DNA of 64,000 nt, taken from Acidimicrobiia bacterium. GTDB lineage: Bacteria > Actinomycetota > Acidimicrobiia > IMCC26256 > PALSA-610. Positions 6,660-53,481 of the stretch are shown here, piece after piece (within the stretch, counting starts at the first letter, position 1; each line of letters starts with the position of its first letter). The DNA is taken from positions 99,217 through 163,216 of the forward strand of contig JBBQGQ010000005.1 of NCBI GenBank assembly GCA_038323195.1. Direction: 5' to 3'. The notes beneath the pieces are model-generated. The model did no database searches, had not been told where the DNA came from, and worked only from the letters and a program-made list of their open reading frames with translations. A program made the position numbers and the translations under genes.

Positions 6660-8040
6660 CTACGTCTAGATCGTGCGCCTATCGGTCGGTGAGGTTGACC
6701 TTGGATGGCTGCTGGGATGACGTGCTTCGAGCACTGAACCATTAGGACGCTGCTGGTCGCCTCGGGCTCAAGGATCCGACGACGAGGAGGTGCTGGTGAG
6801 GAAAGTGTTCGTTGGTCATGACTGGGCTGAAGTCCATCACGATGTGCATGTCGAGGGCGAGACCGGTCAACGTCTCGCCGCAAGGCGATTGCCGGAGGGC
6901 ATCGAAGGGGTGCGCCGGTTCCACGAGCTGGTCGCGACGTATGTGGATGAACCCGCGGATGTGACGGTCGCGACCGAGACCGACCGCGGGCTGTTCGTCG
7001 GCGCGCTGGTCGCGTCGGGTTATCGGGTATTGGCGGTGAACCCGATGTCGACGTCGCGTTATCGGGAACGGCACTCGAGTTCGGGTGCGAAATCTGATCC
7101 GGGTGACGCGAAAGTGTTGGCCGAGCTTGCCCGCCTCGATGGCCACAACCATCGACCGATCGCGGGTGACAGCGATCTCGCGGACGCGGTCAAGGTGCTC
7201 GCCCGTGCACATCACGCGATGATCTGGAGTCGGCAACGTCAAACCAACCAGCTTCGCTCGACCCTGCGCGAATTCTTCCCCGCCGCCCTTGGGGCATTTG
7301 ACGATCTCGCTTCTGGTGACGCACTCGCAGTGCTCGCAATCGCGCCGACACCAACCCAAGGCCGAGCACTGTCGCGATCGAAGATCGCATCCGCATTGCG
7401 GCGCGGGGGACGCCAACGACGTATCGAGGAACGCACGATCGAGATCCAGACCGCGCTGCGGTCTGAGCAACTCGAGGCCCCACCCGTCGTCGCCCAGGCG
7501 ATGGGCGCATCGGTCGCTGCGCTGGTCGCGGTGATCGCCGAGCTCGTCACCCAGACCGGCCGACTCGAAACCGGCCTGGCCGACCGTTTTGAACAGCACC
7601 CGGACGCCAAGATCATCCGTTCCCTGCCAGGACTGGGGATGATCCTCGGCGCCCGGGCGCTCGGCGAGTTCGGGGATGACCCGAACCGCTACCTGAACGC
7701 CAAGTCTCGCAAGAACTACGCCGGCACGTCACCCATCACCAGAGCCTCCGGCAAACAACGCGTCGTGCTCGCCCGCTACGCCCGCAACCGCCACCTCGCC
7801 GACACCTGCCGAATGTGGGCCTTCGCCACCATCACCAACAGCCCCGGAGCCAGAGCCTTCTACGACGAACGCCGCGCCAACGGCGACACCCACAACCGCG
7901 CACTCCGAGCACTCGCGAACCGGCTCGTCGGCATCCTCCACGGCTGCCTAGCCAACAACACCCTCTACGACGAACACATCGCCTGGGGACACAGAATCAC
8001 CCTCGCCGCTTGACACCCACGAACCCTGGGATGTCTAGAC
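6660..8040 (+). mobile_element. IS110-family insertion sequence (boundaries approximate)
   Basis: A single transposase ORF flanked by non-coding sequence, lying between a hydrolase gene and a regulator gene. GTCTAGA occurs at 6664-6670 and 8033-8039, and CTGGGATG at 6711-6718 and 8025-8032. No terminal inverted repeats seen, as is usual for IS110. Confidence 0.6.
6790..8013 (+). CDS. IS110 family transposase
   Basis: 407 aa. N-terminal DEDD-type domain (VFVGHDWAEVHHDV...ATETDRGL...) and C-terminal Transposase_20-type helix-hairpin-helix (IRSLPGLGMILGARALGEFGDDPNRY). Start may be the GTG at 6796. Confidence 0.9.
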   Translation: MLVRKVFVGHDWAEVHHDVHVEGETGQRLAARRLPEGIEGVRRFHELVATYVDEPADVTVATETDRGLFVGALVASGYRVLAVNPMSTSRYRERHSSSGAKSDPGDAKVLAELARLDGHNHRPIAGDSDLADAVKVLARAHHAMIWSRQRQTNQLRSTLREFFPAALGAFDDLASGDALAVLAIAPTPTQGRALSRSKIASALRRGGRQRRIEERTIEIQTALRSEQLEAPPVVAQAMGASVAALVAVIAELVTQTGRLETGLADRFEQHPDAKIIRSLPGLGMILGARALGEFGDDPNRYLNAKSRKNYAGTSPITRASGKQRVVLARYARNRHLADTCRMWAFATITNSPGARAFYDERRANGDTHNRALRALANRLVGILHGCLANNTLYDEHIAWGHRITLAA

Positions 8041-8393: not shown

Positions 8394-11381
8394 GTGCCCA
8401 CCCGCGTCTCGAGCTCCCGGTTCGTCGGACGCCGGGCCGAGCTGACTCGGCTCGAAGCGAGCTGGAAGGCAGCGGTCGTCGACGAGCGTGCGGCGACCGT
8501 GCTCCTGTCCGGCGAGGCGGGCGTCGGCAAGTCGCGGCTCGTGGCCGAGCTCGTCGCTCGTATTCCGGAGCCGTCGCTGGTGTTGTTCGGTCAATGCTTC
8601 GACCTCGTCGATCGCGCGATGCCATTCGGGCCGATCGTGCAGGTGATGCGCACGTTGCATCGCACGCTCGACGAGGCGACGCTCGAATCGGTCATCGGGC
8701 CGGGACGCGACGAGCTCGCGGTTCTGCTGCCCGCGCTCCACACGCCGGCGCGCGAGGGCATCGTCTCCGGCGCGCTGTTCGAGCAGCTGCTCGGCGCGTT
8801 CGAGCGGTTGGCCGAGCGCGTTCCCACCTTGCTGGTGCTCGAGGATCTGCACTGGGCCGATCGGTCGACACGCGAGCTGTTTGCGTATCTCGCTCGAAGT
8901 CTGCGCACGGCGTCGATGGTGCTGTTGGGAACGTATCGTTCCGACGATCTCCACCGGCGACATCCTTTGCGGGGTGTGCTGGCAGAGCTCGACCGCTCGG
9001 GCGCGGTCGAGCGGATCGAGCTTGCTCGCTTCGATCGTGACGAGGTGCGCGAGCTCATCTCGGCGATCGTCGGGAGCGAGCCGTCGACCGAGCTGGTCGA
9101 GCGGACGTATCGCCGCTCCGACGGCAACGCCTTCTTCGCCGAGGAGCTTCTCGCCGTCGACGCCACATACCACGCCACGTACCACGCGTCCATGCCATCG
9201 ACGTTGCGGGAGATCGTGCTCGCGCGCGTCGACGGGCTCTCCGAACCGGCGCAAAACGTGCTCCGTTGCGCGGCGGTCATCGGGCGTTCCGCCGATCACC
9301 GGCTCCTGGAGGCCGCGGCCGGCATTCCTCGCGAGGATCTGCTCGCCGGTCTGCGCGACGCGGTCGAGCACCAGATTCTCGTCACCGACGTCGACGGCCT
9401 GGAATACCGGTTTCGACACGCGCTCGTGCGCGAGGCCGTCGAGGACGACCTGTTACCCGGCGATCGCGTTGCATTGCACTCGCGCGTCGCGGAGGTGCTC
9501 GCCGAGCAACCGGTCTGGTTCGACGGGGGCGCGGCGCAGCTCCTGGCCGAGCTGGCCTGCCACTGGGACAGCGCACGCGATGCGCCGCGCGCGCTCGTCG
9601 CCGCGCTCGACGCCGCGCGCGCCGCCGAGCAGATCTATGCGTACGGCGATGCCCTCGACCACGCCGAACAGGTCCTCGCGTTGTGGGCGCAGGTTCCCGA
9701 CGCCGAGGATCGCACCGGCATGCGCCACGTCGACATGATGCGCTACGCGGCGACGCAGGCGGAGATGTCCGGGAGCACCGACCGAGCCCTCGACTACACC
9801 CGCTCGGCCATCGCTGAGATCGATCCCGTCGACGATCCGATCGTTGCCGGCCTGTTGCACGAGCGCTTCGGCCGGTACCTCTGGATGCTCGCGCGATCCT
9901 GGTCGGACATTCTCGAACATTGCCGCGAAGCCGTACGTCTCGTGCCGGTCGAGCCCAGCGCGGCGCGGGCGAAGGTGCTCGCCACCCTCGGCCAACAGTT
10001 GATGCTCGCGGGCCGCGACGACGAGGCCATGTCCGTCTGTGAGCAGGCGATCGCGGTGGCACAGGCGGTCGGTGAGCCGGTCATCGAGGGTCATGCGCAC
10101 AACTCCCTCGGAACGATCCTCGCCGGCATCGGGCGGTTGGACGAGGGACTCGCCGAGCTGCACCGCGCGCGAGCGCTCGCGCTCGAGACCGAGTCGTGGG
10201 CCGACGTCGCCCGCGCCGCGGTCAACGAGGGCGGCGCGCTCCAGACAACGGCCCGTGACGAGGAGGCGTTGGCGATCTCACTCGAAGGCGCCGAGATCGC
10301 GCGTGCCCACGGGCTCGACCGCGCCTTCGGCGCGTTCCTGCGGTTGAACGCAGTCGAGGCTCTTCGTGCGCTCGGCCGGTGGGACGAGGCCGACGAGCAA
10401 CTGCAGGAAGTCGAGAGTGTCGATCCGCTCGGCATCGACGCCTGGCGCCTCGCCGAGCACCGATGCCTGTTGGCGGTGGGGCGCGCGCAGTTCGAGACCG
10501 CGCGCGCCGAGGCGGCGCGGATGGAGCAGTTGGTCGGCCATGCGGGCGCAGTGCGCGACCACCTCGCGATCGAGCACGCGCACATTGCGATCGCGGGATG
10601 GAGCGGCGACGAGGCCGGGGCGTTCGAGCAGGCGCTCGCGGCCCTGCGCGAGCCGGTCGAGGATCTCCGGTTGTGCTCCGACGTCAGCGTCGAGGTCATC
10701 GTCGAAGGGCTCGCGGCCGGGGCGTCGGTCGCGGCGCGCACGCGGGAGCCCGAAGCTCGCGCCGAGTACCTGGAGCGCGTGCGCGAGCTGGGCGGCCAGC
10801 TCGACGACGGGGTAGCCGCCGATCGGTGGGGCGGCGGTCACCCCGGAGCCCTGGACGCGCTCCGCTGCCACATTGCCGCGGAGACCGCGCGCGCCGCTCG
10901 GAGTGACGACGGGCCGAGCTGGCTCGCGGTCGCCGAGATGTGGTCGGGCTACGCCATGCTCCCGCGTGAAGCGTACGCGCGCTTCCGCGCGACCGAGGCG
11001 TTCGTGCGCGACGACGACCGCGACGCCGCGGCGTCGAGCGCTCGTGATGCGTACGCGCTTGCCGCCGACATCGGCTGGATCTGTGTACGCGACGCGGTCG
11101 CAAGCCTGGCGCGCCGGGCGCGCCTTGATCTGGGCGCGGTCGCCAGTGCGGTGGCCTCGCCCGCGGATCGGTACGGTCTCACGGCCCGCGAGCTCGACGT
11201 CGTCGCGCTCGTGGCCGAGGGTCGCACGAATCGCCAGATCGCCGACGCGCTCTTCATCTCGGCCAAGACGGCGAGTGTGCACGTGTCGAACATCTTGGCC
11301 AAGCTCGGGGTGACCAATCGGGGCGAGGCGGCCGCCGCCGCCCGGCGTCTGGGTCTCGACCTCGGTGCCGCGGGCGCGTAG
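8394..11381 (+). CDS. large ATP-binding LuxR-family (LAL/MalT-like) transcriptional regulator
   Basis: P-loop GEAGVGKS near the N-terminus, a long helical/TPR-like middle and a C-terminal LuxR HTH (LTARELDVVALVAEGRTNRQIADALFISAKTASVHVSNILAKLGV). Start is uncertain (GTG 8307 or GTG 8394). Confidence 0.85.
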   Translation: MPTRVSSSRFVGRRAELTRLEASWKAAVVDERAATVLLSGEAGVGKSRLVAELVARIPEPSLVLFGQCFDLVDRAMPFGPIVQVMRTLHRTLDEATLESVIGPGRDELAVLLPALHTPAREGIVSGALFEQLLGAFERLAERVPTLLVLEDLHWADRSTRELFAYLARSLRTASMVLLGTYRSDDLHRRHPLRGVLAELDRSGAVERIELARFDRDEVRELISAIVGSEPSTELVERTYRRSDGNAFFAEELLAVDATYHATYHASMPSTLREIVLARVDGLSEPAQNVLRCAAVIGRSADHRLLEAAAGIPREDLLAGLRDAVEHQILVTDVDGLEYRFRHALVREAVEDDLLPGDRVALHSRVAEVLAEQPVWFDGGAAQLLAELACHWDSARDAPRALVAALDAARAAEQIYAYGDALDHAEQVLALWAQVPDAEDRTGMRHVDMMRYAATQAEMSGSTDRALDYTRSAIAEIDPVDDPIVAGLLHERFGRYLWMLARSWSDILEHCREAVRLVPVEPSAARAKVLATLGQQLMLAGRDDEAMSVCEQAIAVAQAVGEPVIEGHAHNSLGTILAGIGRLDEGLAELHRARALALETESWADVARAAVNEGGALQTTARDEEALAISLEGAEIARAHGLDRAFGAFLRLNAVEALRALGRWDEADEQLQEVESVDPLGIDAWRLAEHRCLLAVGRAQFETARAEAARMEQLVGHAGAVRDHLAIEHAHIAIAGWSGDEAGAFEQALAALREPVEDLRLCSDVSVEVIVEGLAAGASVAARTREPEARAEYLERVRELGGQLDDGVAADRWGGGHPGALDALRCHIAAETARAARSDDGPSWLAVAEMWSGYAMLPREAYARFRATEAFVRDDDRDAAASSARDAYALAADIGWICVRDAVASLARRARLDLGAVASAVASPADRYGLTARELDVVALVAEGRTNRQIADALFISAKTASVHVSNILAKLGVTNRGEAAAAARRLGLDLGAAGA

Positions 11382-39163: not shown

Positions 39164-39613
39164 TCAGACCTTCGAGGCCCGCAAGCCGTCGGCCTCCGCC
39201 GCCGGCTCGTCGACGTAGCAGCGGTCGGGCTTCGTCCGCGTATAGTTCGCGCCACCGGGCCGGTGGTAGATCCCGCTCGCGAGCTTCGCCTTGATCGGAT
39301 GCGTCGCCGGGCAGCTGCCGTCGGCGTTCGGCTCGACCCACGCGTGTGTCGGCGCGCGGCGTGCGGGAGCGCGTGCGGAAGGGAGTGCGGGAGGGCGTGC
39401 AGAAGAACGCGCGGGAGGACCGGCGGAAGGTGCCGCGGGTGTGGTGACCGGCTCCGGAGTGCTGCGCGGCACGGGCGGGAAGGGGAACGGCGCCGTCGAC
39501 CATTCCACGCCGCGCGCGGGGTCGGCGGTTCGAGCGCTCCAGGCGCGCCAAGCCGCGTACCCGATGCCGCCCAGGATTCCGGCGCCGAGCGCACGCTTCA
39601 GATGTTTATGCAT
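39164..39613 (-). CDS. membrane-anchored Pro/Ala-rich protein with a small C-terminal Cys-bracketed domain
   Basis: 149 aa with an N-terminal TM helix (ALGAGILGGIGYAAW), a low-complexity linker and the C-terminal module CPATHPIKAKLASGIYHRPGGANYTRTKPDRCY. From memory this resembles a small conserved actinobacterial domain; not verified. Confidence 0.65.
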   Translation of the reverse strand: MHKHLKRALGAGILGGIGYAAWRAWSARTADPARGVEWSTAPFPFPPVPRSTPEPVTTPAAPSAGPPARSSARPPALPSARAPARRAPTHAWVEPNADGSCPATHPIKAKLASGIYHRPGGANYTRTKPDRCYVDEPAAEADGLRASKV

Positions 39614-39712
39614 CGTGTTTAGCCATTGGGGGGTTTACCCATTGGGCCTCCGCATTTGTCCTCATCCGGCTGGATCTTCTCATGCGCGAGCCGCTCGCTG
39701 CCGACCAAAGGT

Positions 39713-39741
39713 TTGACCGGTGCCGTCGACACTGCCAGACT
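39713..39741 (+). promoter_or_regulatory. candidate promoter of the leuA leader (TTGACC - 17 nt - CAGACT)
   Basis: The -35-like hexamer at 39713-39718 and the -10-like hexamer (A2, T6) at 39736-39741 lie 10 nt before the leader ATG, which would make the leader peptide (nearly) leaderless. Confidence 0.35.
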
Positions 39742-39751
39742 GGCGGGACTT

Positions 39752-39805
39752 ATGCGCAAGGAGACAACGGCTTTCGCAGCTCTGCTGGGCCTCCTCCTTA
39801 TATAG
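39752..39805 (+). promoter_or_regulatory. Leu-rich leader peptide ORF (MRKETTAFAALLGLLLI) of a leuA attenuator
   Basis: ATG CGC AAG GAG ACA ACG GCT TTC GCA GCT CTG CTG GGC CTC CTC CTT ATA TAG. Five Leu codons fall in the last eight positions. It is followed by a hairpin, a terminator and then leuA. Confidence 0.7.
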
Positions 39806-39835
39806 GCGCGGGCGCCCACCGGTGCTCGCGCTCGA

Positions 39836-39866
39836 CCCTCCGTGCCGACCCGGCCGGGGGGTTTTT
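39836..39866 (+). terminator. intrinsic terminator of the leuA attenuator
   Basis: CCCTCCGTGCCG-ACC-CGGCCGGGGGG forms about 11 bp (one bulged T, one G-U pair) and is followed by TTTTT (39862-39866), about 105 nt upstream of the leuA ATG. Confidence 0.65.
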
Positions 39867-39972
39867 CGTTGCATAACGGTGCGGTGAACGGAGCCGACGG
39901 CGGAGTGAGCTCGCCAGCGAGCGAACGACAGCGGGACGGGTATCCCGGCCCGCAGAGAGTGAGCGAACAAAG

Positions 39973-41514
39973 ATGGACATGGTCAGGATCTTCGACACGA
40001 CCCTGCGTGACGGCGAGCAATCGCCCGGGATCTCGCTCGACGTCACCGAGAAGCTCGAGATCGCCGACCAGCTCGCACGCCTCGGGGTCGACGTGATCGA
40101 AGCGGGCTTCCCGATCGCGTCCGACGGCGATTTCGAGTCGGTCGAGGCCATCGCCAAGGTGGTGAAGGGGCCGATCATCACCGCCTTGTCGCGTACCGGC
40201 TTCAAGGACGTCGACCGGGCGTGGGAGGCGGTGCGGCACGCCGAGAGGCCCCGCATCCACGTGTTCATCGCGACGTCGAAGATCCACATGGAGAAGAAGC
40301 TCCGCATGACCCCGGAGCAGGTGAAGCACGAGGCCGAGGTGGCGGTGGCGCGCGCCAAGGGTTACGTGGACGACGTCGAGTTCTCGCCCGAGGACGGGTA
40401 CCGCTCCGATCCCGACTTCATGTGCGAGGTGTGCCAGATCGCGGTCGACAACGGCGCGACGACGCTCAACATCCCCGACACCGTCGGCTTCGCGGTGCCG
40501 GACGACTACGGCCGGCTGATCAAGCTCGTCATCGACACCGTGAAGGGCGATTTCGTCGTGTCGACGCACTGCCACAACGATCTCGGCCTTGCAGTCGCGA
40601 ACTCGCTCGCCGGCGTCGCGAACGGCGCCCGCCAGGTCGAGTGCGCGATCAACGGGCTCGGCGAGCGTGCCGGCAACGCCGCGCTCGAAGAGGTCGTGAT
40701 GGCGATCCGCACTCGGCGCGATTACTTCCACACGGTCGACGTGAACGTCCGCACGGAAGAGTTGGCCCGAACCTCGCGCATGGTCGCGCGGCTCACCGGC
40801 TACCACGTGCAGTACAACAAGGCGGTCGTCGGCCGCAACGCGTTCGCGCACGAGGCCGGCATCCACCAGCACGGCGTGTTGGCCGACCGGGAGACCTACG
40901 AGATCATCGACGCGTCGACGGTGGGTCAGGAGGCCGCCCAGATCGTGCTCGGCAAGCACTCGGGTCGCCACGCGTTCGCCGACACGCTCGAGAAGATGGG
41001 AATCCATGTTCAGGGCGACGCGCTGAACAGTGCGTTCGTGCGCTTCAAGGAGCTCGCCGACAAGAAGGTCGAGATCACCGACGCCGACCTCGAGGCGATC
41101 ATCGCCGAGGAGCTCGGCAGTGGCATGGTGCACCGTTACGGCTTGCACGAGCTCGAGGTGCGCGGTGGTACGAGCATTCCGCCGGTCGCCCGCGTCGTGC
41201 TGACCGATGCGGACGGCAAGATCGAGGCGACCGGCACCGGAGACGGCATGATCGACGCCGCGATCGCCGCGATCGGAACGGCGACGGGGGTGCAGGGAAA
41301 GCTCGGCAACTTCCAGGTGTCGTCGGTGACGGGCGGCGCCGACGCGCTCGGTGCGGTCGCGGTGACGGTCGACGCGGAAGGGCGCAAGGTGACGGGTCGC
41401 GGTGTCGCGACCGACGTCGTGGAGGCCTCCGCGCGTGCGTATCTCAACGCCGTGAACAAGCTCGTCCGCATGCGCGGCCGCGGCGAGGTCGACGTGTCCA
41501 CGGTCGGACCGTGA
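39973..41514 (+). CDS. leuA: 2-isopropylmalate synthase
   Basis: 513 aa. [29 protein letters not shown] and a C-terminal LeuA dimerisation/regulatory domain. Confidence 0.95.
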
Positions 41515-41515
41515 C

Positions 41516-42175
41516 ATGACGGTCAATCTCTGGGTCAACGAGGAACATGCGGTGGCCTACCTGCGGGAGCGGGACACGCTCCCGCACCGCGTCGATGCGC
41601 TCGAGGTGTTGTGCGAGCTGTTACCCGAGCGGGTGGGCCGCGTCCTCGATCTCGGGACCGGTGACGGCGTCACGCTCGCACTCGTGCTCGCGGCCCGGCC
41701 CGAGGCGAGCGGCGTGGGCCTCGATTTCGGCGAGGAGATGCTCCGCCGCGCGCAGGACCGCTTCGCGGTCGAGCCGCGGGTCGAGATCGACCGGCACGAT
41801 CTCGACCGGTCCCTGCCGCCTAGCTTGGGTGACTTCGACGTCGTGGTGTCGAGCTTTGCGATCCATCACCTTGCACCGGCCCGCCAGCACGCGCTCTACC
41901 GAGAGGTGTTCGCAGTCTTGCGTCCGGGTGGACGCTTCGTGAACGCCGAGCACGTTGCGTCGCCGACCGAGGAGTTGCACCAGGAGTTTCTCGCCGCGCT
42001 CGGACGCACGCCCGCCGAGGACGATCCATCCAACCAGCTCGTCGCCGTCGAACAGCATCTGAGCTGGTTGAACGAGGTCGGTTTCGTGAATTCTGAGTGC
42101 TTTTGGAAATGGCGCGAGCTTGCGGTCGTCTCGGGGACGCGGCCGCGGGAACAATCAGGAGGCCTCGAACCTTGA
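41516..42175 (+). CDS. class I SAM-dependent methyltransferase
   Basis: ATG 1 nt after the leuA stop. Motif I VLDLGTGDG, and post-I/II motifs (VVSSFAIHHL, LRPGGRF). Confidence 0.85.
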   Translation: MTVNLWVNEEHAVAYLRERDTLPHRVDALEVLCELLPERVGRVLDLGTGDGVTLALVLAARPEASGVGLDFGEEMLRRAQDRFAVEPRVEIDRHDLDRSLPPSLGDFDVVVSSFAIHHLAPARQHALYREVFAVLRPGGRFVNAEHVASPTEELHQEFLAALGRTPAEDDPSNQLVAVEQHLSWLNEVGFVNSECFWKWRELAVVSGTRPREQSGGLEP

Positions 42176-49668: not shown

Positions 49669-49697
49669 TTGACAATGTTGTGATCTGCTGCGATCCT
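49669..49697 (+). promoter_or_regulatory. candidate promoter of the leuB-operon leader (TTGACA - 17 nt - GATCCT)
   Basis: Perfect -35 hexamer at 49669-49674 and a -10-like hexamer at 49692-49697, 9 nt before the leader ATG. The geometry is the same as at the leuA leader. Confidence 0.4.
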
Positions 49698-49706
49698 GGT
49701 CGTCTC

Positions 49707-49742
49707 ATGTCCGTGCATCTCTCAGTCGTCGTCATTCGATAA
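49707..49742 (+). promoter_or_regulatory. Val/Ile/Leu-rich leader peptide ORF (MSVHLSVVVIR) of an attenuator
   Basis: ATG TCC GTG CAT CTC TCA GTC GTC GTC ATT CGA TAA. It is followed at once by a perfect 9-bp hairpin (49743-49765) and a terminator, then leuB. Confidence 0.7.
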
Positions 49743-49770
49743 GCGAACGCCGCACCGGCGTTCGCTGCAA

Positions 49771-49798
49771 CCGTCCACCTCCGCGTGGGCGGTTTTTT
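49771..49798 (+). terminator. intrinsic terminator of the leuB-operon attenuator
   Basis: CCGTCCAC-CTCCGC-GTGGGCGG forms 8 bp (one G-U pair) and is followed by TTTTTT (49793-49798), 34 nt upstream of the leuB GTG. Confidence 0.7.
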
Positions 49799-49831
49799 CG
49801 TGAACGCACCTGATCGGAAAGGAAACAGCCC

Positions 49832-50824
49832 GTGGCCCATCGGGTCGGGATCATCGGCGGCGACGGCATCGGCCCCGAAGTCGTGCACGAAGCGTTGAAG
49901 GTCGTGCGCGCCGCGGGCGTCGAGCTCGACCCGATCGAATACGACCTCGGCGGACGTCGCTATCTTGCGACCGGCGAGGTGTTGCCCGACGCCGTGCTCG
50001 AGGAGTTGCGCGGCCTCGACGCGATCTTGCTCGGCGCGGTCGGGACACCCGACGTTCCGCCGGGCGTGCTCGAGCGAGGTCTGCTGCTGAAGATGCGCTT
50101 CGCGCTCGACCTCTACGTGAACCTGCGGCCGTTCAAGGCCGGTCCCGGACGCCACAACGAGGGTGTCGATTTCGTCGTGGTGCGCGAGAACACCGAAGGA
50201 ACGTACGCGGGCGAGGGTGGTTTCCTGCGCAGGGGCACACCGCACGAGGTCGCGACCCAAGGCTCGGTGAACACGCGCATGGGCGTAGAACGTTGCGTGC
50301 GTTTCGCGTTCGACCTCGCCCGATCTCGCGACCGTAAGCATCTCACGCTCGTGCACAAGACGAACGTGCTCACCTTCGCCGGCGACCTCTGGCAACGCAC
50401 GTTCGACGACGTGGCCCGCTCGTTCACCGACGTCGGCACCGCGTACAACCACGTCGACGCGGCGTGCATCTATTTCGTACAGGACCCGCAGCGCTACGAC
50501 GTGGTCGTCACCGACAACCTGTTCGGAGACATCCTTACCGACCTCGGCGGCGCGATCGGCGGCGGTATCGGGCGGGCTGCGTCGGCGAACCTCAACCCCG
50601 ACCGGACCGGCCCATCGCTCTTCGAGCCGGTCCACGGATCGGCTCCCGACATCGCCGGCACCGGGCAGGCCGACCCCCGGGCTGCGGTGATCTCGGCCGC
50701 GCTGATGTGTGATTTCCTCGGTGAGAGCGATGCTCTGGCCCGAATCCAAAAGGCACTGGACACGACGGACGATGTAAAAGGCACGACTTCACAGATCGGC
50801 GACGCGATCGCCGCCGCCTGCTGA
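49832..50824 (+). CDS. leuB: 3-isopropylmalate dehydrogenase
   Basis: GTG start preceded by [20 protein letters not shown] and the NLFGDILTD motif. Confidence 0.95.
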
Positions 50825-50851
50825 CGACGCAGCTCGACGAAAGGCTCTGCG

Positions 50852-51766
50852 ATGCCCATCACCCCGACCGACAAGATCTGGATGAACGGCGAGCTCGTTC
50901 CGTGGGCGGACGCGCGGATCCACGTCCTCACGCACACGTTGCACTACGGCACCGGAGTCTTCGAGGGCATCCGCGCGTACGAGACGGAACGGGGCCCGGC
51001 GGTCTTCCGCCTCACCGAGCACATCACGCGGTTGTTCGACTCCGCGCGGATCATGATGATGGAGATCCCGTACACCGTCGACCAGCTCGTACAGGCGACG
51101 AAGGACACCGTGCGCGCGACCGGACTCGCGTCGTGCTACGTCCGGCCGATCGCGTACTACGGGTACGGCGAGATGGGCCTCAACACGTTGCCGTGTGAGG
51201 TGGACGTCTCGATCGCGTGTTGGCCGTGGGGCGCGTACCTCGGTGCGGACGCCGTCTCCAAGGGCGTGCGCATGAAGATCTCGAGCTGGACGCGCCACGA
51301 CCACAACACGATGCCGCCCCTGTCGAAGACGACCGGCAACTACGTCAACTCGTCGCTCGCGAAGGTCGAAGCGCTCAAAGCGGGATACGACGAGGCGATC
51401 ATGCTCAATCCGGATGGCCTCGTCTCCGAGTGCACCGGTGAGAACATCTTCGCCGCGCGTCGCGGTGTGCTGGTCACGCCGCCGGTCTCCGCCGGCGCGC
51501 TGCCGGGCATCACCCAGGATTCGGTGACGACGATTGCCCGCGACCACGGCTTCGAGGTCCGCGTCGACGACTTGTCGCGCAGCGATCTCTACGTCGCCGA
51601 AGAGATGTTCGTGTGCGGCACTGCGGCCGAGGTCAGCGCCGTGAACTCCGTCGACGACCGCGCCATCCCGTGCCCCGGTCCGATGACCCAAGTCATCGCC
51701 GCCGAGTACGCCAAAGCCGTCCGCGGCGAGATCGACAAATACAAAGACTGGTGCGAATTGGTATGA
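50852..51766 (+). CDS. ilvE: branched-chain amino acid aminotransferase (class IV)
   Basis: 304 aa. HTLHYGTGVFEGIRAY and the rest of the fold-type IV pattern. Confidence 0.95.
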   Translation: MPITPTDKIWMNGELVPWADARIHVLTHTLHYGTGVFEGIRAYETERGPAVFRLTEHITRLFDSARIMMMEIPYTVDQLVQATKDTVRATGLASCYVRPIAYYGYGEMGLNTLPCEVDVSIACWPWGAYLGADAVSKGVRMKISSWTRHDHNTMPPLSKTTGNYVNSSLAKVEALKAGYDEAIMLNPDGLVSECTGENIFAARRGVLVTPPVSAGALPGITQDSVTTIARDHGFEVRVDDLSRSDLYVAEEMFVCGTAAEVSAVNSVDDRAIPCPGPMTQVIAAEYAKAVRGEIDKYKDWCELV

Positions 51767-53481
51767 GTGAGTCTGGAAGTGGCGGAGTCCCGAGCGCCCG
51801 CGAGGTGGGTATCCCGCCGAGCAGCGAGGGCGACAAAGCAAGCATCGTGGGTATCCCGCCGAGCAGCGAGGGCGACAAAGCAAGTATCGAAATTTACGAC
51901 ACGACGTTGCGGGATGGCTCGCAGCTCGAGGGGATCTCGCTGACCGTCGAGGACAAGCTGCGGATCGCGGAGCAACTCGACTGGCTCGGTGTGCACTACA
52001 TCGAAGCCGGTTGGCCGGGCGCGAACCCGAAGGACGACGAGCTGTTCCGGCGCGTGCCGAACGAGCTGAGGCTCGAGACCAGCACCCTCGTCGCGTTCGG
52101 GTCGACGCGTCGAGTCAAGGGCAAGGTCGACAGCGACGACACACTCCGCCACCTCGTCGAGGCGAATGTCGGGACCGTCTGCATCGTGGGCAAGTCTTGG
52201 GACTACCACGTCACCGAGGCACTGGGCACGACGCTCGACGAGGGTGTGGCGATGGTCGGCGATTCGGTCGAATTCCTGCGCGGCGCCGGGATGCAGGTGC
52301 TCTTCGACGCCGAGCACTTCTTCGACGGCTTCAAGCGCAATCCCGAGTTCTCGCTGCGCGTGCTCGAAGCCGCGGCGACGAACGGCGCGAGCCATCTCGT
52401 GCTCTGCGACACCAACGGCGGAGCGCTGCCACGCGAGGTCGAGCAGGCCGTGGCAGATGTCGTGCGTTACTTCGGTGCCGACGTCAAGATCGCGGTGCAT
52501 CTCCACGACGATGCCGGCACTGGAGTTGCGAACGCGCTCGCGGGGGTACTCGGGGGCGCCACACAGGTCCAGGGCACGATCAACGGTTACGGCGAGCGCA
52601 CGGGCAACTGCAATCTCACCACGATCATCCCGAATCTCACGCTCAAGATGGGCTACGAGACCATCCCGCTCGATCGCTTCGAGCGGCTCACTCCGGTTGC
52701 GCACCACATCGCCGAGCTTGTGAACATGCCCCTCAACCCGCAGGCCGCGTACGTGGGCCATTCCGCGTTCGCGCACAAGGCCGGGTTGCACACGAGCGCG
52801 ATCGCGAAGCGTCCCGACGCCTACGAGCACGTATCGCCCGAGGTCGTCGGGAACGGGACGCGGTTCGTGGTATCGGAGCTCGCGGGCAAGTCGACGCTCG
52901 GGCTCAAGGCCAAGGAGCTCGGCCTCGAGCTCGACGGACCGCAGCTGGCCGACGTGGTCGAGACGTTGAAGCGGCTCGAGCACGAGGGCTACCACTTCGA
53001 GGTTGCCGACGGCTCGTTGGAGTTGCTCATGCGCCGGGCAACGGGTTGGGAGCCCGGCTGGTTCCGAGTCGAGTCGTTCCGCGTGATCACCGACGACCTC
53101 GGCGGCGTCGACACCCTTACCGACAAGACCGGCGCGACCGTGATGACCGAAGCAACCGTCAAGGTCCACATTGGTGGTAGGCGAGTGGTGGCGACCGCCG
53201 AGGGCAACGGTCCGGTGAACGCGCTCGACACCGCGCTGCGAACCGCACTCGACGGCAATTTCCCCGCGCTCGAGCGAGTGCACCTGACCGACTACAAGGT
53301 GCGGGTGCTCGACACGAACAAGGGCACGGGCGCGGCGACTCGGGTGCTGATCGACTCCACCGACGGCAACGGCACGTGGACGACCATCGGCGTGAACGAG
53401 AACATCATCGAAGCCTCGTGGCAGGCGCTGCTCGACTCGATTCATTTCGGCCTGCTGCGCGCCGAGCTCGCCGGCGGCTGA
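51763..53481 (+). CDS. cimA: citramalate synthase-like LeuA paralogue
   Basis: ATG at 51763 in an ATGA overlap with the ilvE stop; alternative GTG starts lie at 51805 and 51847. IYDTTLRDGSQ, HLHDDAGTGVANALAGV and a C-terminal LeuA_dimer-type domain. From memory the layout resembles the TIGR00977 citramalate synthase class; the substrate is not proven. Confidence 0.8.
   Translation: MSESGSGGVPSAREVGIPPSSEGDKASIVGIPPSSEGDKASIEIYDTTLRDGSQLEGISLTVEDKLRIAEQLDWLGVHYIEAGWPGANPKDDELFRRVPNELRLETSTLVAFGSTRRVKGKVDSDDTLRHLVEANVGTVCIVGKSWDYHVTEALGTTLDEGVAMVGDSVEFLRGAGMQVLFDAEHFFDGFKRNPEFSLRVLEAAATNGASHLVLCDTNGGALPREVEQAVADVVRYFGADVKIAVHLHDDAGTGVANALAGVLGGATQVQGTINGYGERTGNCNLTTIIPNLTLKMGYETIPLDRFERLTPVAHHIAELVNMPLNPQAAYVGHSAFAHKAGLHTSAIAKRPDAYEHVSPEVVGNGTRFVVSELAGKSTLGLKAKELGLELDGPQLADVVETLKRLEHEGYHFEVADGSLELLMRRATGWEPGWFRVESFRVITDDLGGVDTLTDKTGATVMTEATVKVHIGGRRVVATAEGNGPVNALDTALRTALDGNFPALERVHLTDYKVRVLDTNKGTGAATRVLIDSTDGNGTWTTIGVNENIIEASWQALLDSIHFGLLRAELAGG
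51805..51888. repeat. 42-bp in-frame tandem duplication (41/42) in the 5' end of the cimA-like gene
   Basis: Copies at 51805-51846 and 51847-51888, each beginning with GTG. They encode VGIPPSSEGDKASI twice, directly before the conserved IYDTTLRDG core. Confidence 0.95.

What the first reader, a model, noticed from the sequence alone, without database searches (positions are those of the whole stretch)
39620..39972. Leucine-codon leader peptide and terminator: a transcription attenuator in front of leuA
The 360-bp spacer upstream of leuA contains, in order: (1) a promoter-like TTGACC-17nt-CAGACT (39713-39741); (2) 10 nt later a 17-codon ORF, MRKETTAFAALLGLLLI (39752-39805), with five Leu codons (CTG CTG .. 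CTC CTC CTT) packed at its end; (3) immediately after the TAG an 11-bp hairpin (39806-39831, GCGCGGGCGCC-CACC-GGTGCTCGCGC); (4) a GC-rich stem followed by TTTTT (39836-39866); (5) about 105 nt later the leuA ATG. This is the textbook layout of ribosome-mediated attenuation. Leader-peptide attenuators are established for enterobacterial leu operons and, as far as I recall, have been described for Corynebacterium glutamicum leuA. The peptide is too short for the ORF track, and gene callers would miss it. The near-leaderless geometry fits actinobacterial transcription. I could not work out a convincing antiterminator pairing by eye.
Basis: partly seen in the sequence, partly recalled or inferred. 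Interest (0 to 1): 0.6.

Follow-up and report, generated by a model that had tools for sequence, protein, structure and literature searches.

The report
Leucine-sensing leader attenuator without antiterminator
A 17-codon leucine-rich mini-gene, a hairpin and a transcription terminator sit in front of the leucine-synthesis gene leuA and are conserved across a whole class of Actinobacteria, but they lack the competing "antiterminator" RNA fold that textbook attenuators use, so how the switch flips is still open.

Summary
All 77 orthologous leuA upstream regions that could be examined (Acidimicrobiia, LeuA 67-97% identical) carry the same element: a promoter 9-10 nt before an ATG, a short ORF ending Leu-Leu-Leu-X-stop, a GC-rich hairpin (P2) 0-2 nt after the stop, and a hairpin plus U-tract terminator (T) 1-5 nt further on. 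The third Leu codon is always the rare CTT. Both hairpins show compensatory base changes. A sister element with Val/Ile codons (MSVHLSVVVIR*) and the same geometry precedes leuB-ilvE-cimA 10 kb downstream and is also widely conserved. It is not the textbook layout. No alternative pairing competes with the terminator. A test that recovers the antiterminators of E. coli leuL, thrL, trpL and hisL (-6 to -14 kcal/mol) gives about -1 to -3 kcal/mol here, and more when the ribosome is at the stop codon, which is the wrong direction. My preferred model is inferred, not shown: the ribosome stalled on CTT abuts P2, which holds it next to the terminator and hinders terminator folding, while a ribosome that reaches the stop codon unzips P2 and releases the terminator. 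No Rfam family matches. I rate it a new variant of a known kind.

The parts
39713..39718 (+). -35 hexamer TTGACC
   Evidence: Read. TTGAC at this position relative to the leader ATG occurs in 65 of 75 orthologous loci.
39736..39741 (+). -10 hexamer CAGACT (NANNNT type), 17 nt after the -35
   Evidence: The spacer is 17-18 nt in 66 of 69 loci. CAGACT and CACACT are the commonest hexamers. The hexamer ends 9-10 nt before the ATG in 64 of 69 loci. That implies a start near 39747-39749 and a 5' UTR of about 3-5 nt. The start position is inferred; there are no transcript data.
39752..39805 (+). Leader ORF MRKETTAFAALLGLLLI*, with no Shine-Dalgarno sequence
   Evidence: An ORF ending LLL-x-stop is present in 74 of 77 orthologous regions, against 0 of 77 on the reverse complement.
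39758..39763 (+). AAGGAG box in codons 3-4, complementary both to the Leu codons (CUCCUU) and to the terminator's 5' arm (CUCC at 39838-41)
   Evidence: The MFE fold pairs it with the Leu codons. In truncated transcripts with a stalled ribosome it pairs with 39838-45 (-10.6 kcal/mol). Codon 3 varies in amino acid but always ends in G in the closest clade. The box is not conserved in other clades.
39782..39799 (+). Control codons CTG CTG GGC CTC CTC CTT. The last, CTT (39797-99), is invariant across the family and is followed by one sense codon and the stop.
   Evidence: The CTT columns are invariant in 52 of 52 aligned sequences. CTT makes up only 3.5% of Leu codons in four BCAA genes of the window.
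39805..39832 (+). Hairpin P2 (11-12 bp, loop CACC), starting at the last base of the stop codon
   Evidence: Helix 1 is 98% paired across 52 sequences, with 3 of 9 pairs changed on both sides. G-U pairs are frequent, so this is an RNA hairpin and not a DNA palindrome. The stop-to-P2 gap is 0-2 nt in 75 of 75 loci.
39834..39866 (+). Intrinsic terminator T: a 13-bp stem with one bulge, loop ACC, and a U5 tract (39862-66) followed by CGUUGC
   Evidence: Seven of 10 pairs carry compensatory changes. It is one of only four hairpin+U-tract sites on either strand of the 64-kb window. The P2-to-T gap is 1-5 nt in all 75 loci.
39973..41514 (+). leuA, bacterial-type 2-isopropylmalate synthase (513 aa), the regulated gene
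   Evidence: NCBIfam NF002086 scores 713.7 bits (cutoff 532) and TIGR00973 scores 657.5 bits (cutoff 598.7).
49669..49798 (+). Sister attenuator of the same architecture in front of leuB-ilvE-cimA. Its parts are: -35 TTGACA at 49669-74; -10 GATCCT at 49692-97; ORF MSVHLSVVVIR* at 49707-49742; hairpin at 49743-49765; terminator at 49770-49792 plus U6.
   Evidence: The CM gives 26 bits, E about 1e-4. Sequence; fold z = -4.0. Downstream genes. The element was found in 42 of the 80 metagenome LeuB loci retrieved, with the stop-to-hairpin gap 0 in 42 of 42. Eight of 20 pairs are compensatory.

Best explanation
This is a ribosome-mediated transcription attenuator that ties leuA transcription to the supply of charged tRNA-Leu. 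It is built differently from the classical trp/leu/his type. Transcription starts about 3-5 nt before the ATG, so the leader is translated in the near-leaderless way. By default the RNA folds into P2 and the terminator T, and RNA polymerase stops at the U-tract near 39866. When leucyl-tRNA is plentiful, the ribosome runs through Leu-Leu-Leu-X to the stop codon, unzips P2 and leaves, so T still forms and leuA stays off. When leucyl-tRNA(GAG) is scarce, the ribosome waits with the rare CTT codon in its A site. At that point the base of P2 sits exactly at the mRNA entry port, 6-8 nt after the A-site codon. There is no RNA antiterminator. The step I favour is inference only, and I give it about 0.35 on its own. 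In this model the folded P2 collapses about 26 nt of RNA, so the stalled ribosome sits only 1-6 nt from the foot of T. That crowds the RNA exit channel of the polymerase, so the basal pairs of T cannot close, and the polymerase reads through. Moving two codons further to the stop melts P2 and puts about 20 nt of slack between the ribosome and T, which lets T form. Shown here: the parts, their conservation, covariation and fixed geometry, the sister element, and the absence of an alternative fold. Inferred: the transcription start, the leucine response and the way the terminator is overridden. The confidence figure of 0.75 applies to the core claim, a Leu-sensing leader-peptide attenuator without a classical antiterminator.
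For: Conservation. The element is found in 77 of 77 orthologous loci. The LLL-x-stop ORF occurs in 74 of 77 loci, against 0 of 77 and 0.1 of 77 in the controls.

Structure. P2 and T are 96.5% paired, against 41-48% when the partners are slid. Ten pairs carry double changes, and 0 of 500 shuffles reach the observed values.

Geometry in 75 loci. The stop-to-P2 gap is 0-2 nt, P2 has 9-11 bp, the P2-to-T gap is 1-5 nt, and the stop-to-U-run distance is 54-57 nt in 72 of 75. There is exactly one codon between the last Leu codon and the stop.

Codon choice. The last control codon is the rare wobble codon CTT in every sequence.

Independent replicate. A Val/Ile version of the same design precedes leuB-ilvE-cimA in the window and occurs in 42 metagenome loci. 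There the last control codon is usually ATT, followed by one codon, the stop, and the hairpin at gap 0.

No antiterminator. Only the A:B and C:D arm pairs beat shuffles. T persists in every ribosome-constrained fold. dG_anti averages -0.9, -1.6 and -3.2 kcal/mol with the ribosome on the Leu codons, and -4.6 at the stop. The E. coli controls give -6 to -14 on the control codons and 0 to -3 at the stop. The leuB family behaves the same way.

Promoter. It is conserved 9-10 nt before the ATG.

Precedent. Leaderless BCAA/Leu leader peptides are known in C. glutamicum and M. tuberculosis (PMC4046766, PMC3890552, PMC13236596).
Against: There is no transcript, Term-seq or reporter evidence of any kind; all of this is sequence inference from uncultured MAGs. 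The steric step has no direct support and no precedent that I could cite. In the predicted terminated folds of E. coli leuL, trpL and hisL an upstream helix also lies 2-3 nt from the terminator, so a neighbouring helix alone does not prevent termination. A ribosome at the stop codon is only 6 nt further along than the stalled one, so the proposed discrimination rests entirely on whether P2 is folded or melted. In this window's clade a long-range pairing of the AAGGAG box with the terminator's 5' arm exists (-10.6 kcal/mol, and -16.4 in L001) and could act as a conventional competitor. Thermodynamic folding cannot see kinetic, tertiary or protein-assisted alternatives.
Confidence: 0.75

Rival explanations
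1. It is a classical attenuator after all, and the antiterminator is a long-range helix between the AAGGAG box at the start of the ORF (39756-63) and the terminator's 5' arm (39838-45). Without a ribosome the box is held by the Leu codons (CUCCUU). A ribosome stalled on those codons frees the box, which then captures the terminator arm before the 3' arm is made.
For: The MFE fold pairs AAGGAG with CUCCUU. In transcripts truncated before the terminator's 3' arm, with the ribosome on the Leu codons, GCA-AGGAG pairs with CUCC-G-UGC in WIN, L003, L011, L019 and L044. Energies run from -10.6 to -16.4 kcal/mol in the closest clade, comparable to E. coli trp 2:3. GGAG is fixed at the nucleotide level while codon 3 changes its amino acid.
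Against: It is not general. Only 14% of sequences beat shuffles for this pairing, and only 9% reach -8 kcal/mol. Whole clades (MPCLTASQNLLLT, MTLVPHFNGLLLT, Acidimicrobiales) and the leuB family have no such box. No compensatory changes are seen, because the terminator arm is constant within the clade. The helix would have to close around a stalled ribosome plus P2, and in the 13-codon leaders the box lies only about 4-7 nt behind the ribosome.
Confidence: 0.15
2. P2 itself is the antiterminator although it does not overlap T. A rigid GC-rich helix 1-5 nt from the foot of T keeps the basal pairs of T out of the polymerase's RNA exit channel, so the default state is ON. Only a ribosome sitting on the stop codon, which melts P2, allows termination.
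For: The P2-to-T gap is always short: 1-5 nt in 75 leuA loci and 3-6 nt in 42 leuB loci. P2 starts at the stop codon, so a terminating ribosome must unwind it. The logic matches the one proposed for M. tuberculosis ilvB1, where a ribosome at the stop codon masks the antiterminator (PMC13236596).
Against: In the predicted terminated folds of E. coli trpL, hisL and leuL an upstream helix lies 2-3 nt from the terminator, yet those attenuators terminate. Repression would depend on the ribosome occupying the stop codon during the fraction of a second in which T is made. After release P2 would refold, which would make a leaky switch.
Confidence: 0.15
3. The terminator is controlled by something other than the leader ribosome, such as a protein or small molecule binding P2/T. 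In this case the short ORF is a by-product or encodes a functional micropeptide.
For: The P2 core GCG-GC/GC-CGC never varies in 52 leuA-family sequences although T covaries freely. No RNA alternative to T was found.
Against: The amino-acid run tracks the pathway: Leu in front of leuA, and Val/Ile in front of leuB-ilvE-cimA. The rest of the peptide is not conserved across clades, which argues against a functional peptide. The P2 core covaries in the leuB family (GCGAAC/GUUCGC, GCGCAC/GUGCGC, GCGGGC/GCCCGC), which argues against sequence-specific recognition. No riboswitch-like conserved unpaired bases are present, and there is no Rfam match.
Confidence: 0.05

Closest known systems
Classical leader-peptide attenuators of enterobacterial amino-acid operons (leuL, trpL, hisL, thrL; Rfam RF00512 and relatives)
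   Same: A short ORF with a run of codons for the end-product amino acid. A rare codon is used (CUA in E. coli leuL from my own knowledge; CTT here). An intrinsic terminator lies between the ORF and the biosynthetic gene, and a hairpin lies between the ORF and the terminator.
   Different: There is no antiterminator (2:3) pairing: dG_anti is about -1 to -3 kcal/mol against -6 to -14. The control codons lie just upstream of the first hairpin rather than inside its 5' arm, and exactly one codon before the stop. The start is near-leaderless, with no Shine-Dalgarno sequence. No Rfam model matches.
Actinobacterial leaderless BCAA/Leu leaders: C. glutamicum leuA and ilvBNC, and M. tuberculosis ilvB1 (PMC4046766, PMC3890552, PMC11857589, PMC13236596)
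   Same: The same phylum. The leader peptide is translated without a ribosome-binding site. There are runs of Leu or Leu/Val/Ile codons near the end of the ORF, and a terminator with a U-tract in a genome where such terminators are rare.
   Different: Those systems are described with overlapping terminator, antiterminator and (in C. glutamicum ilvBNC) anti-antiterminator hairpins. Here the two hairpins do not overlap and nothing competes with the terminator. The leuA here is the short bacterial type (TIGR00973), not the long TIGR00970 type, against which it scores only 119 bits (cutoff 697).
LEU element upstream of leuA in Actinobacteria (Seliverstov et al. 2005, PMC1262725)
   Same: An upstream ORF with a run of Leu codons in front of leuA in Actinobacteria. 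The Leu codons are CUC/CUU-rich, so they resemble the anti-Shine-Dalgarno sequence.
   Different: The LEU element is a pseudoknot whose base stem pairs the Leu-codon run with the leuA Shine-Dalgarno box. The paper describes no terminator for it and says other attenuator elements are missing upstream of the leucine operons. Here a terminator is present, the distance to leuA varies from about 22 to more than 400 nt, and Leu-run:SD pairing is no better than shuffles (mean z +0.21).
Ribosome-proximity attenuators of E. coli pyrBI and pyrE (my own knowledge, not checked here)
   Same: There is no RNA antiterminator. Whether the terminator hairpin forms depends on how close the leading ribosome is to the polymerase.
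   Different: In pyrBI/pyrE the ORF runs into or right up to the terminator, and the signal is UTP-dependent polymerase pausing. Here the ORF stops about 30 nt before the terminator, a hairpin fills the gap, and the signal is a hungry codon.

Membership tests
Classical ribosome-mediated (leader-peptide) transcription attenuator | Short translated ORF with tandem codons for the regulating amino acid, upstream of the cognate biosynthetic gene | tested here: met
   MRKETTAFAALLGLLLI* lies upstream of leuA. LLL-x-stop is conserved in 74 of 77 orthologous leaders. Translation itself was not tested.
Classical ribosome-mediated (leader-peptide) transcription attenuator | Intrinsic terminator (GC-rich hairpin plus U-tract) between the leader ORF and the structural gene | tested here: met
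   39834-39866. Seven of 10 stem pairs carry compensatory changes. Present in 77 of 77 loci.
Classical ribosome-mediated (leader-peptide) transcription attenuator | An antiterminator structure that excludes the terminator, forms when the ribosome stalls on the control codons, and is blocked when the ribosome reaches the stop codon | tested here: not met
   dG_anti is -0.9, -1.6 and -3.2 kcal/mol at the Leu codons and -4.6 at the stop, which is the reverse order. E. coli leuL, thrL, trpL and hisL give -6 to -14 at the control codons and 0 to -3 at the stop with the same script. Only the P2 and T arm pairs exceed shuffles. The result is the same in the leuB family.
Classical ribosome-mediated (leader-peptide) transcription attenuator | A polymerase pause hairpin that synchronises transcription with leader translation | not testable with these tools
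   P2 could serve this role. In the window a G(-10)...U(-1)G(+1) pause-like context lies 11-12 nt after P2 (39834/39843/39844), but the leuB element has no such match at that distance.
Classical ribosome-mediated (leader-peptide) transcription attenuator | Premature termination that is relieved on starvation for the amino acid | not testable with these tools
   No transcriptome or reporter data exist for these uncultured Acidimicrobiia.
Rfam Leu_leader (RF00512) and other curated leader families | Match to the family covariance model | tested here: not met
   No hit at gathering threshold in the window. At E<=10 on 39500-40100 only four weak matches to unrelated families appear, all far below their gathering scores (E 0.49-4.7, 15-21 bits).
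Actinobacterial LEU element (PMC1262725) | Base stem formed by the Leu-codon run pairing with the leuA Shine-Dalgarno box, enclosing a pseudoknot. The paper describes no terminator for this element. | tested here: not met
   Leu-run:SD duplex has mean z +0.21, and 1% of loci are significant. A terminator is present. The spacer to leuA is variable.

The most novel reading that the evidence does not exclude
Acidimicrobiia use a distinct class of amino-acid attenuators (at least leuA and leuB-ilvE-cimA) that works without any antiterminator RNA. A 'spacer hairpin' placed exactly at the mRNA entry port of a ribosome waiting on a rare NUU control codon converts a 6-nt difference in ribosome position into folded versus melted RNA. 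The resulting proximity of the ribosome to the polymerase, rather than an alternative RNA fold, decides whether the adjacent terminator can close.
Probability: 0.3. Interest if true: 0.8.

Novelty: new variant of a known kind. Interest (0 to 1): 0.6.

Why it matters
Leader-peptide attenuation is a textbook mechanism defined by competing RNA folds. This window shows a class-wide, strongly conserved pair of attenuator families. Together they hold 119 examples, each with covariation and almost invariant geometry. They keep the sensor (codon run) and the effector (terminator) but have no competitor fold. If the readout is physical proximity of ribosome and polymerase set by a collapsible hairpin, it would be a new way of coupling translation to termination. 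It would also be a compact, easily engineered part. Practically, the result gives a covariance model for an element that gene callers and Rfam miss. It predicts how leucine and isoleucine/valine synthesis is controlled in a poorly studied, largely uncultured soil and freshwater lineage. It also warns that attenuator finders which require terminator/antiterminator pairs will overlook such elements.

Tried and rejected
1. Programmed +1/-1 frameshift at CUU-A that would carry the ribosome through the terminator. Both alternative frames are open past T in 71 of 75 (+1) and 73 of 75 (-1) loci, as expected at 69% GC, so this is uninformative. Four loci have a +1 stop in the P2 loop. I rejected it as a conserved mechanism.

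2. P2 5' arm pairing with the T 5' arm (8 bp in the window: GGCGCGGG with UCCGUGCC). The mean is -9.7 kcal/mol but z is -0.23 against shuffles, and it is always out-competed by P2.

3. P2 3' arm pairing with the T 5' arm ('2:3'). It appears only when the whole 5' arm of P2 is masked, that is, with the ribosome at the stop codon (-1.6 to -8.8 kcal/mol, and absent in L037). That is the wrong direction for a biosynthetic gene.

4. Leu codons pairing with the T 3' arm. z is -0.64, the Leu region stays constant while the T arms covary, and the ribosome covers that region in the stalled state.

5. Leu codons pairing with the leuA SD (LEU element). z is +0.21.

6. P2 as a DNA palindrome or operator. 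Rejected, because G-U pairs are frequent on the + strand.

7. P2 as a sequence-specific protein or polymerase site. Weakened, because the leuB-family hairpin covaries.

8. Rfam at gathering and at E<=10: nothing relevant.

9. The generic sigma-70 scan missed the promoter, which was recovered by conservation.

10. A literature search for Acidimicrobiia attenuators listed no paper that mentions Acidimicrobiia.
Full report
OBSERVATION. TTGACC lies at 39713-18, followed by 17 nt and CAGACT at 39736-41. Ten nt later comes the ORF ATG CGC AAG GAG ACA ACG GCT TTC GCA GCT CTG CTG GGC CTC CTC CTT ATA TAG (39752-39805; MRKETTAFAALLGLLLI*). A hairpin follows at 39806-39831, then a GC-rich stem at 39834-39863 ending in TTTTT (39862-66), and 106 nt later the leuA ATG at 39973. 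RNAfold gives exactly these two hairpins downstream of the ORF (z = -2.9). The downstream gene is a bacterial-type 2-isopropylmalate synthase (NF002086, 713.7 bits against a cutoff of 532). No Rfam family matches, either at gathering threshold or at E<=10.

IS IT MORE THAN CHANCE? A scan of one genome per species returned 80 leuA loci with 67-97% LeuA identity, nearly all labelled Acidimicrobiia or Actinomycetota MAGs. The window therefore comes from this class. In 74 of 77 loci with upstream DNA there is an ATG-initiated ORF of 9-45 codons ending LLL-(x)-stop. The reverse complement of the same regions has 0 of 77, and shuffles average 0.1 of 77. A covariance model built from 52 non-identical sequences finds one copy in each of 77 of 77 loci that hold upstream sequence, always upstream of leuA on its strand (51-101 bits). 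The three without a hit are contigs cut inside leuA. One locus (L030) keeps the RNA element but has an in-frame TAA in the ORF.

Outside the Leu run the peptides are unrelated between clades: MRKETTASAALLGLLLM, MTKELRAQSLLLT, MPCLTASQNLLLT, MTLVPHFNGLLLT, MREYPLIQALLLT. So selection acts on the codon run and not on a peptide.

Both hairpins are supported by covariation. Cells are 96.5% paired, against 41-48% when partners are slid by 1-3 columns. Ten of 19 pairs carry changes on both sides, and 0 of 500 shuffles reach the observed values. Frequent G-U pairs show that P2 is an RNA structure and not a DNA operator.

ANATOMY AND ITS RIGIDITY. Measured in 75 loci:
- The stop-to-P2 gap is 0 nt in 60 loci, 1 nt in 12 and 2 nt in 3.
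- P2 has 9-11 bp with a 3-6 nt loop.
- The P2-to-T gap is 1-5 nt (mode 2).
- T has 10-14 bp, with the U-run starting inside or right at its foot.
- The distance from the stop to the U-run is 54-57 nt in 72 of 75.

The third Leu codon is CTT in every sequence. L1 and L2 vary at the wobble position (CTC, CTG, CTT, CTA), and exactly one sense codon (Thr, Met, Ile, Leu or Ser) separates CTT from the stop. CTT accounts for 3.5% of Leu codons in leuA, leuB, ilvE and cimA of this window. A -35 hexamer (TTGAC in 65), a 16-19 nt spacer (17 or 18 in 66) and a NANNNT hexamer is found in 69 of 75 loci, and the -10 ends 9-10 nt before the ATG in 64 of those. No Shine-Dalgarno sequence precedes the ATG. The inference is a 5' UTR of about 3-5 nt and leaderless-type initiation, as documented for the C. 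glutamicum ilvB leader and reported as common in mycobacteria (PMC4046766 citing Morbach 2000; bioRxiv 10.1101/834739). Only four hairpin+U-tract sites exist on both strands of the 64-kb window. Two of them are attenuators and one follows the tRNA genes.

A SISTER ELEMENT. The covariance model also hit 49725-49804 (26 bits). In order, this region holds:
- TTGACA at 49669-74 and GATCCT at 49692-97.
- Nine nt later, ATG TCC GTG CAT CTC TCA GTC GTC GTC ATT CGA TAA (49707-42; MSVHLSVVVIR*).
- A hairpin starting at the next base (49743-65).
- A 4-nt gap, then a terminator (49770-92) with U6.

Downstream lie leuB, ilvE and a citramalate synthase. Among the 80 metagenome LeuB loci retrieved, 42 carry the same element. 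Their peptides end VIVIP*, VVVIR*, IIVIP*, VIVIS* and similar. The last control codon is usually the rare ATT (6.2% of Ile codons). One codon precedes the stop in 41 of 42, the stop-to-hairpin gap is 0 in 42 of 42, and the gap to the terminator is 3-6 nt. Eight of 20 pairs are compensatory. The amino acid encoded by the run follows the pathway being controlled. This is the strongest argument available without experiments that these ORFs sense tRNA charging.

THE MISSING ANTITERMINATOR. Classical attenuators require a fold that competes with the terminator. I looked for one in four ways.

(i) Folds with 28 nt masked around a ribosome whose A site holds Leu1, Leu2, Leu3 or the stop codon keep the terminator in all 14 representatives folded.

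(ii) I computed duplex energies between all pairs of segments: the 5' part of the ORF, the Leu region, both arms of P2 and both arms of T. These were compared with shuffles in 56 non-identical sequences. Only the P2 arms (z -4.5) and the T arms (z -4.0) stand out, and every cross pairing has a mean z between -0.64 and +0.81.

(iii) The choice in real attenuators is kinetic, so I folded the transcript as it exists before the terminator's 3' arm emerges and asked how much energy depends on the terminator's 5' arm (dG_anti). For E. coli leuL, thrL, trpL and hisL (fetched) this gives -6 to -14 kcal/mol with the ribosome on most control codons, and 0 to -3 at the stop codon. The test therefore recovers known antiterminators and their direction. 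For the leuA family the means are -0.9, -1.6 and -3.2 at Leu1-3 and -4.6 at the stop. For the leuB family they are -0.4, -0.6, -1.1 and -3.3.

(iv) The weak pairing seen at the stop codon joins the top of the P2 3' arm (GGUGC) to the top of the T 5' arm (GUGCC). It gives -1.6 to -8.8 kcal/mol and is absent in L037. It would favour read-through when leucine is plentiful, so it cannot be the regulatory switch of a biosynthetic gene.

MECHANISM. What is established is a leader ORF with pathway-specific codon runs, a terminator, and a hairpin locked in register with both. With CTT in the A site, the P-site codon starts 12 nt before the first base after the stop, so P2 begins at +12 to +14 from the P site. 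From established knowledge of ribosome footprints and frameshift-stimulating structures, that is where an mRNA helix can first persist at the entry port. Two codons later, with the stop in the A site, the ribosome must have opened most of the 5' arm of P2. So the only things that distinguish a hungry ribosome from a finishing one are that the hungry ribosome persists and that P2 stays folded.

I therefore favour a proximity model. Folded P2 shortens the path from the stalled ribosome to the foot of T to a few nucleotides. The ribosome and P2 crowd the polymerase exit channel, and the basal pairs of T, which are needed for release, cannot form. A ribosome that reaches the stop melts P2, which inserts about 20 nt of slack, and then leaves, so T closes. 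The model explains the one-codon rule, the 0-2 nt and 1-6 nt gaps, the rare wobble codon, and the lack of any competitor. It is inference, and I give it about 0.35.

There are three rivals. The first is a long-range AAGGAG:CUCC-GUGC helix. It is real in this clade (-10.6 kcal/mol, and -16.4 in L001), but it is absent from other clades and from the leuB family. It lacks covariation, and in 13-codon leaders it is sterically awkward. The second is P2 alone blocking T, with default ON. It is weakened because in the predicted terminated folds of E. coli trpL, hisL and leuL an upstream helix lies 2-3 nt from the terminator. The third is an unknown trans factor. It is weakened because the P2 sequence covaries in the leuB family.

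COMPARISON WITH WHAT IS KNOWN. Leu leader peptides are known in enterobacteria and in C. glutamicum leuA (PMC4046766, PMC3890552). BCAA leaders with terminator and antiterminator are described for C. glutamicum ilvBNC (PMC11857589) and M. tuberculosis ilvB1 (PMC13236596). The actinobacterial LEU element pairs the Leu run with the leuA SD inside a pseudoknot, and the paper describes no terminator for it (PMC1262725). Here that pairing is at chance level and a terminator is present. A full-text search listed no paper that mentions Acidimicrobiia. The element works like a leader-peptide attenuator but fails the defining antiterminator test, so I class it as a new variant of a known kind.

LIMITS. 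All evidence is computational and from MAGs. The transcription start, the terminated transcript and the leucine response are untested. Thermodynamic models cannot exclude tertiary, kinetic or factor-assisted competitors. Two observations remain unexplained. In the leuA family the P2 core never varies while T covaries, and in the leuB family the reverse holds. The GGAG box is also fixed at the nucleotide level in the closest clade.

Noticed in passing
window 49669-49798 (+), upstream of 49832-53481: A second attenuator of identical architecture with a Val/Ile leader (MSVHLSVVVIR*) lies in front of leuB (NF002898, 496 bits), ilvE (NF005146) and a citramalate synthase (TIGR00977, 658 bits). It was found in 42 of the 80 metagenome LeuB loci retrieved.
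   Followed up: yes
window, both strands (11528, 39862, 49793, 58999): Only four hairpin+U-tract terminator-like sites occur in 64 kb. Two are the attenuators, one follows the tRNA-Gln/tRNA-Glu pair, and one (11528) is weak. Canonical intrinsic terminators therefore seem to be reserved for special uses in this genome.
   Followed up: partly
window 39760-39763: GGAG in codons 3-4 of the leader is fixed at the nucleotide level in the closest clade. Codon 3 encodes K, T, R, Q, L or M but always ends in G. The box is complementary both to the Leu codons and to the terminator's 5' arm. In L015 and L016 it sits 5 nt before an in-frame ATG, like a Shine-Dalgarno sequence.
   Followed up: partly
A1 columns 21-25/39-43 (window 39807-11 / 39826-30) and A2 columns 52-62/67-77: The pattern of constraint is opposite in the two families. 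The P2 core is invariant and T covaries in the leuA family. P2 covaries and the terminator ACCGUCCAC/GUGGGCGGU is nearly invariant in the leuB family. This is unexplained.
   Followed up: partly
window 41516-42175 (+): A class I SAM-dependent methyltransferase-like ORF (219 aa; only weak NCBIfam matches, all well below their cutoffs) starts 2 nt after the leuA stop, so it is probably co-transcribed with leuA and under the same attenuator.
   Followed up: no
window 39164-39613 (-): The gene divergent from the leuA leader encodes a 149-aa protein with a C-terminal 'sunset domain' (NF051437, 44 bits against a cutoff of 27).
   Followed up: no
window 7623-7704 (-): An Rfam hit above gathering to the Actinobacteria sRNA Ms_AS-4 (RF02464, 84 bits).
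   Followed up: no
window 8967-9054 (+): ARAGORN reports an odd tRNA-like gene with a 4-base anticodon (cggg) and undetermined identity. Rfam tRNA did not call it at gathering threshold.
   Followed up: no
L079 about 2680-2860 (upstream of leuA in an Acidimicrobiales MAG): A tandem array of CCAAGACACACCGAGAT-like units of about 17 nt lies between the leader element (2536-2622) and leuA. In Acidimicrobiales generally, about 85 to more than 400 nt separate the terminator from leuA (150-350 nt in most), and the U-tract is interrupted in most (UUUCUUCUU).
   Followed up: no
L030 about 2790-2850: The leader RNA element is intact, but the ATG ORF is interrupted by an in-frame TAA (ATG ACG ACC CGG ACG TAA ...). 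This could be a decaying leader, an assembly error, or use of another start codon.
   Followed up: no
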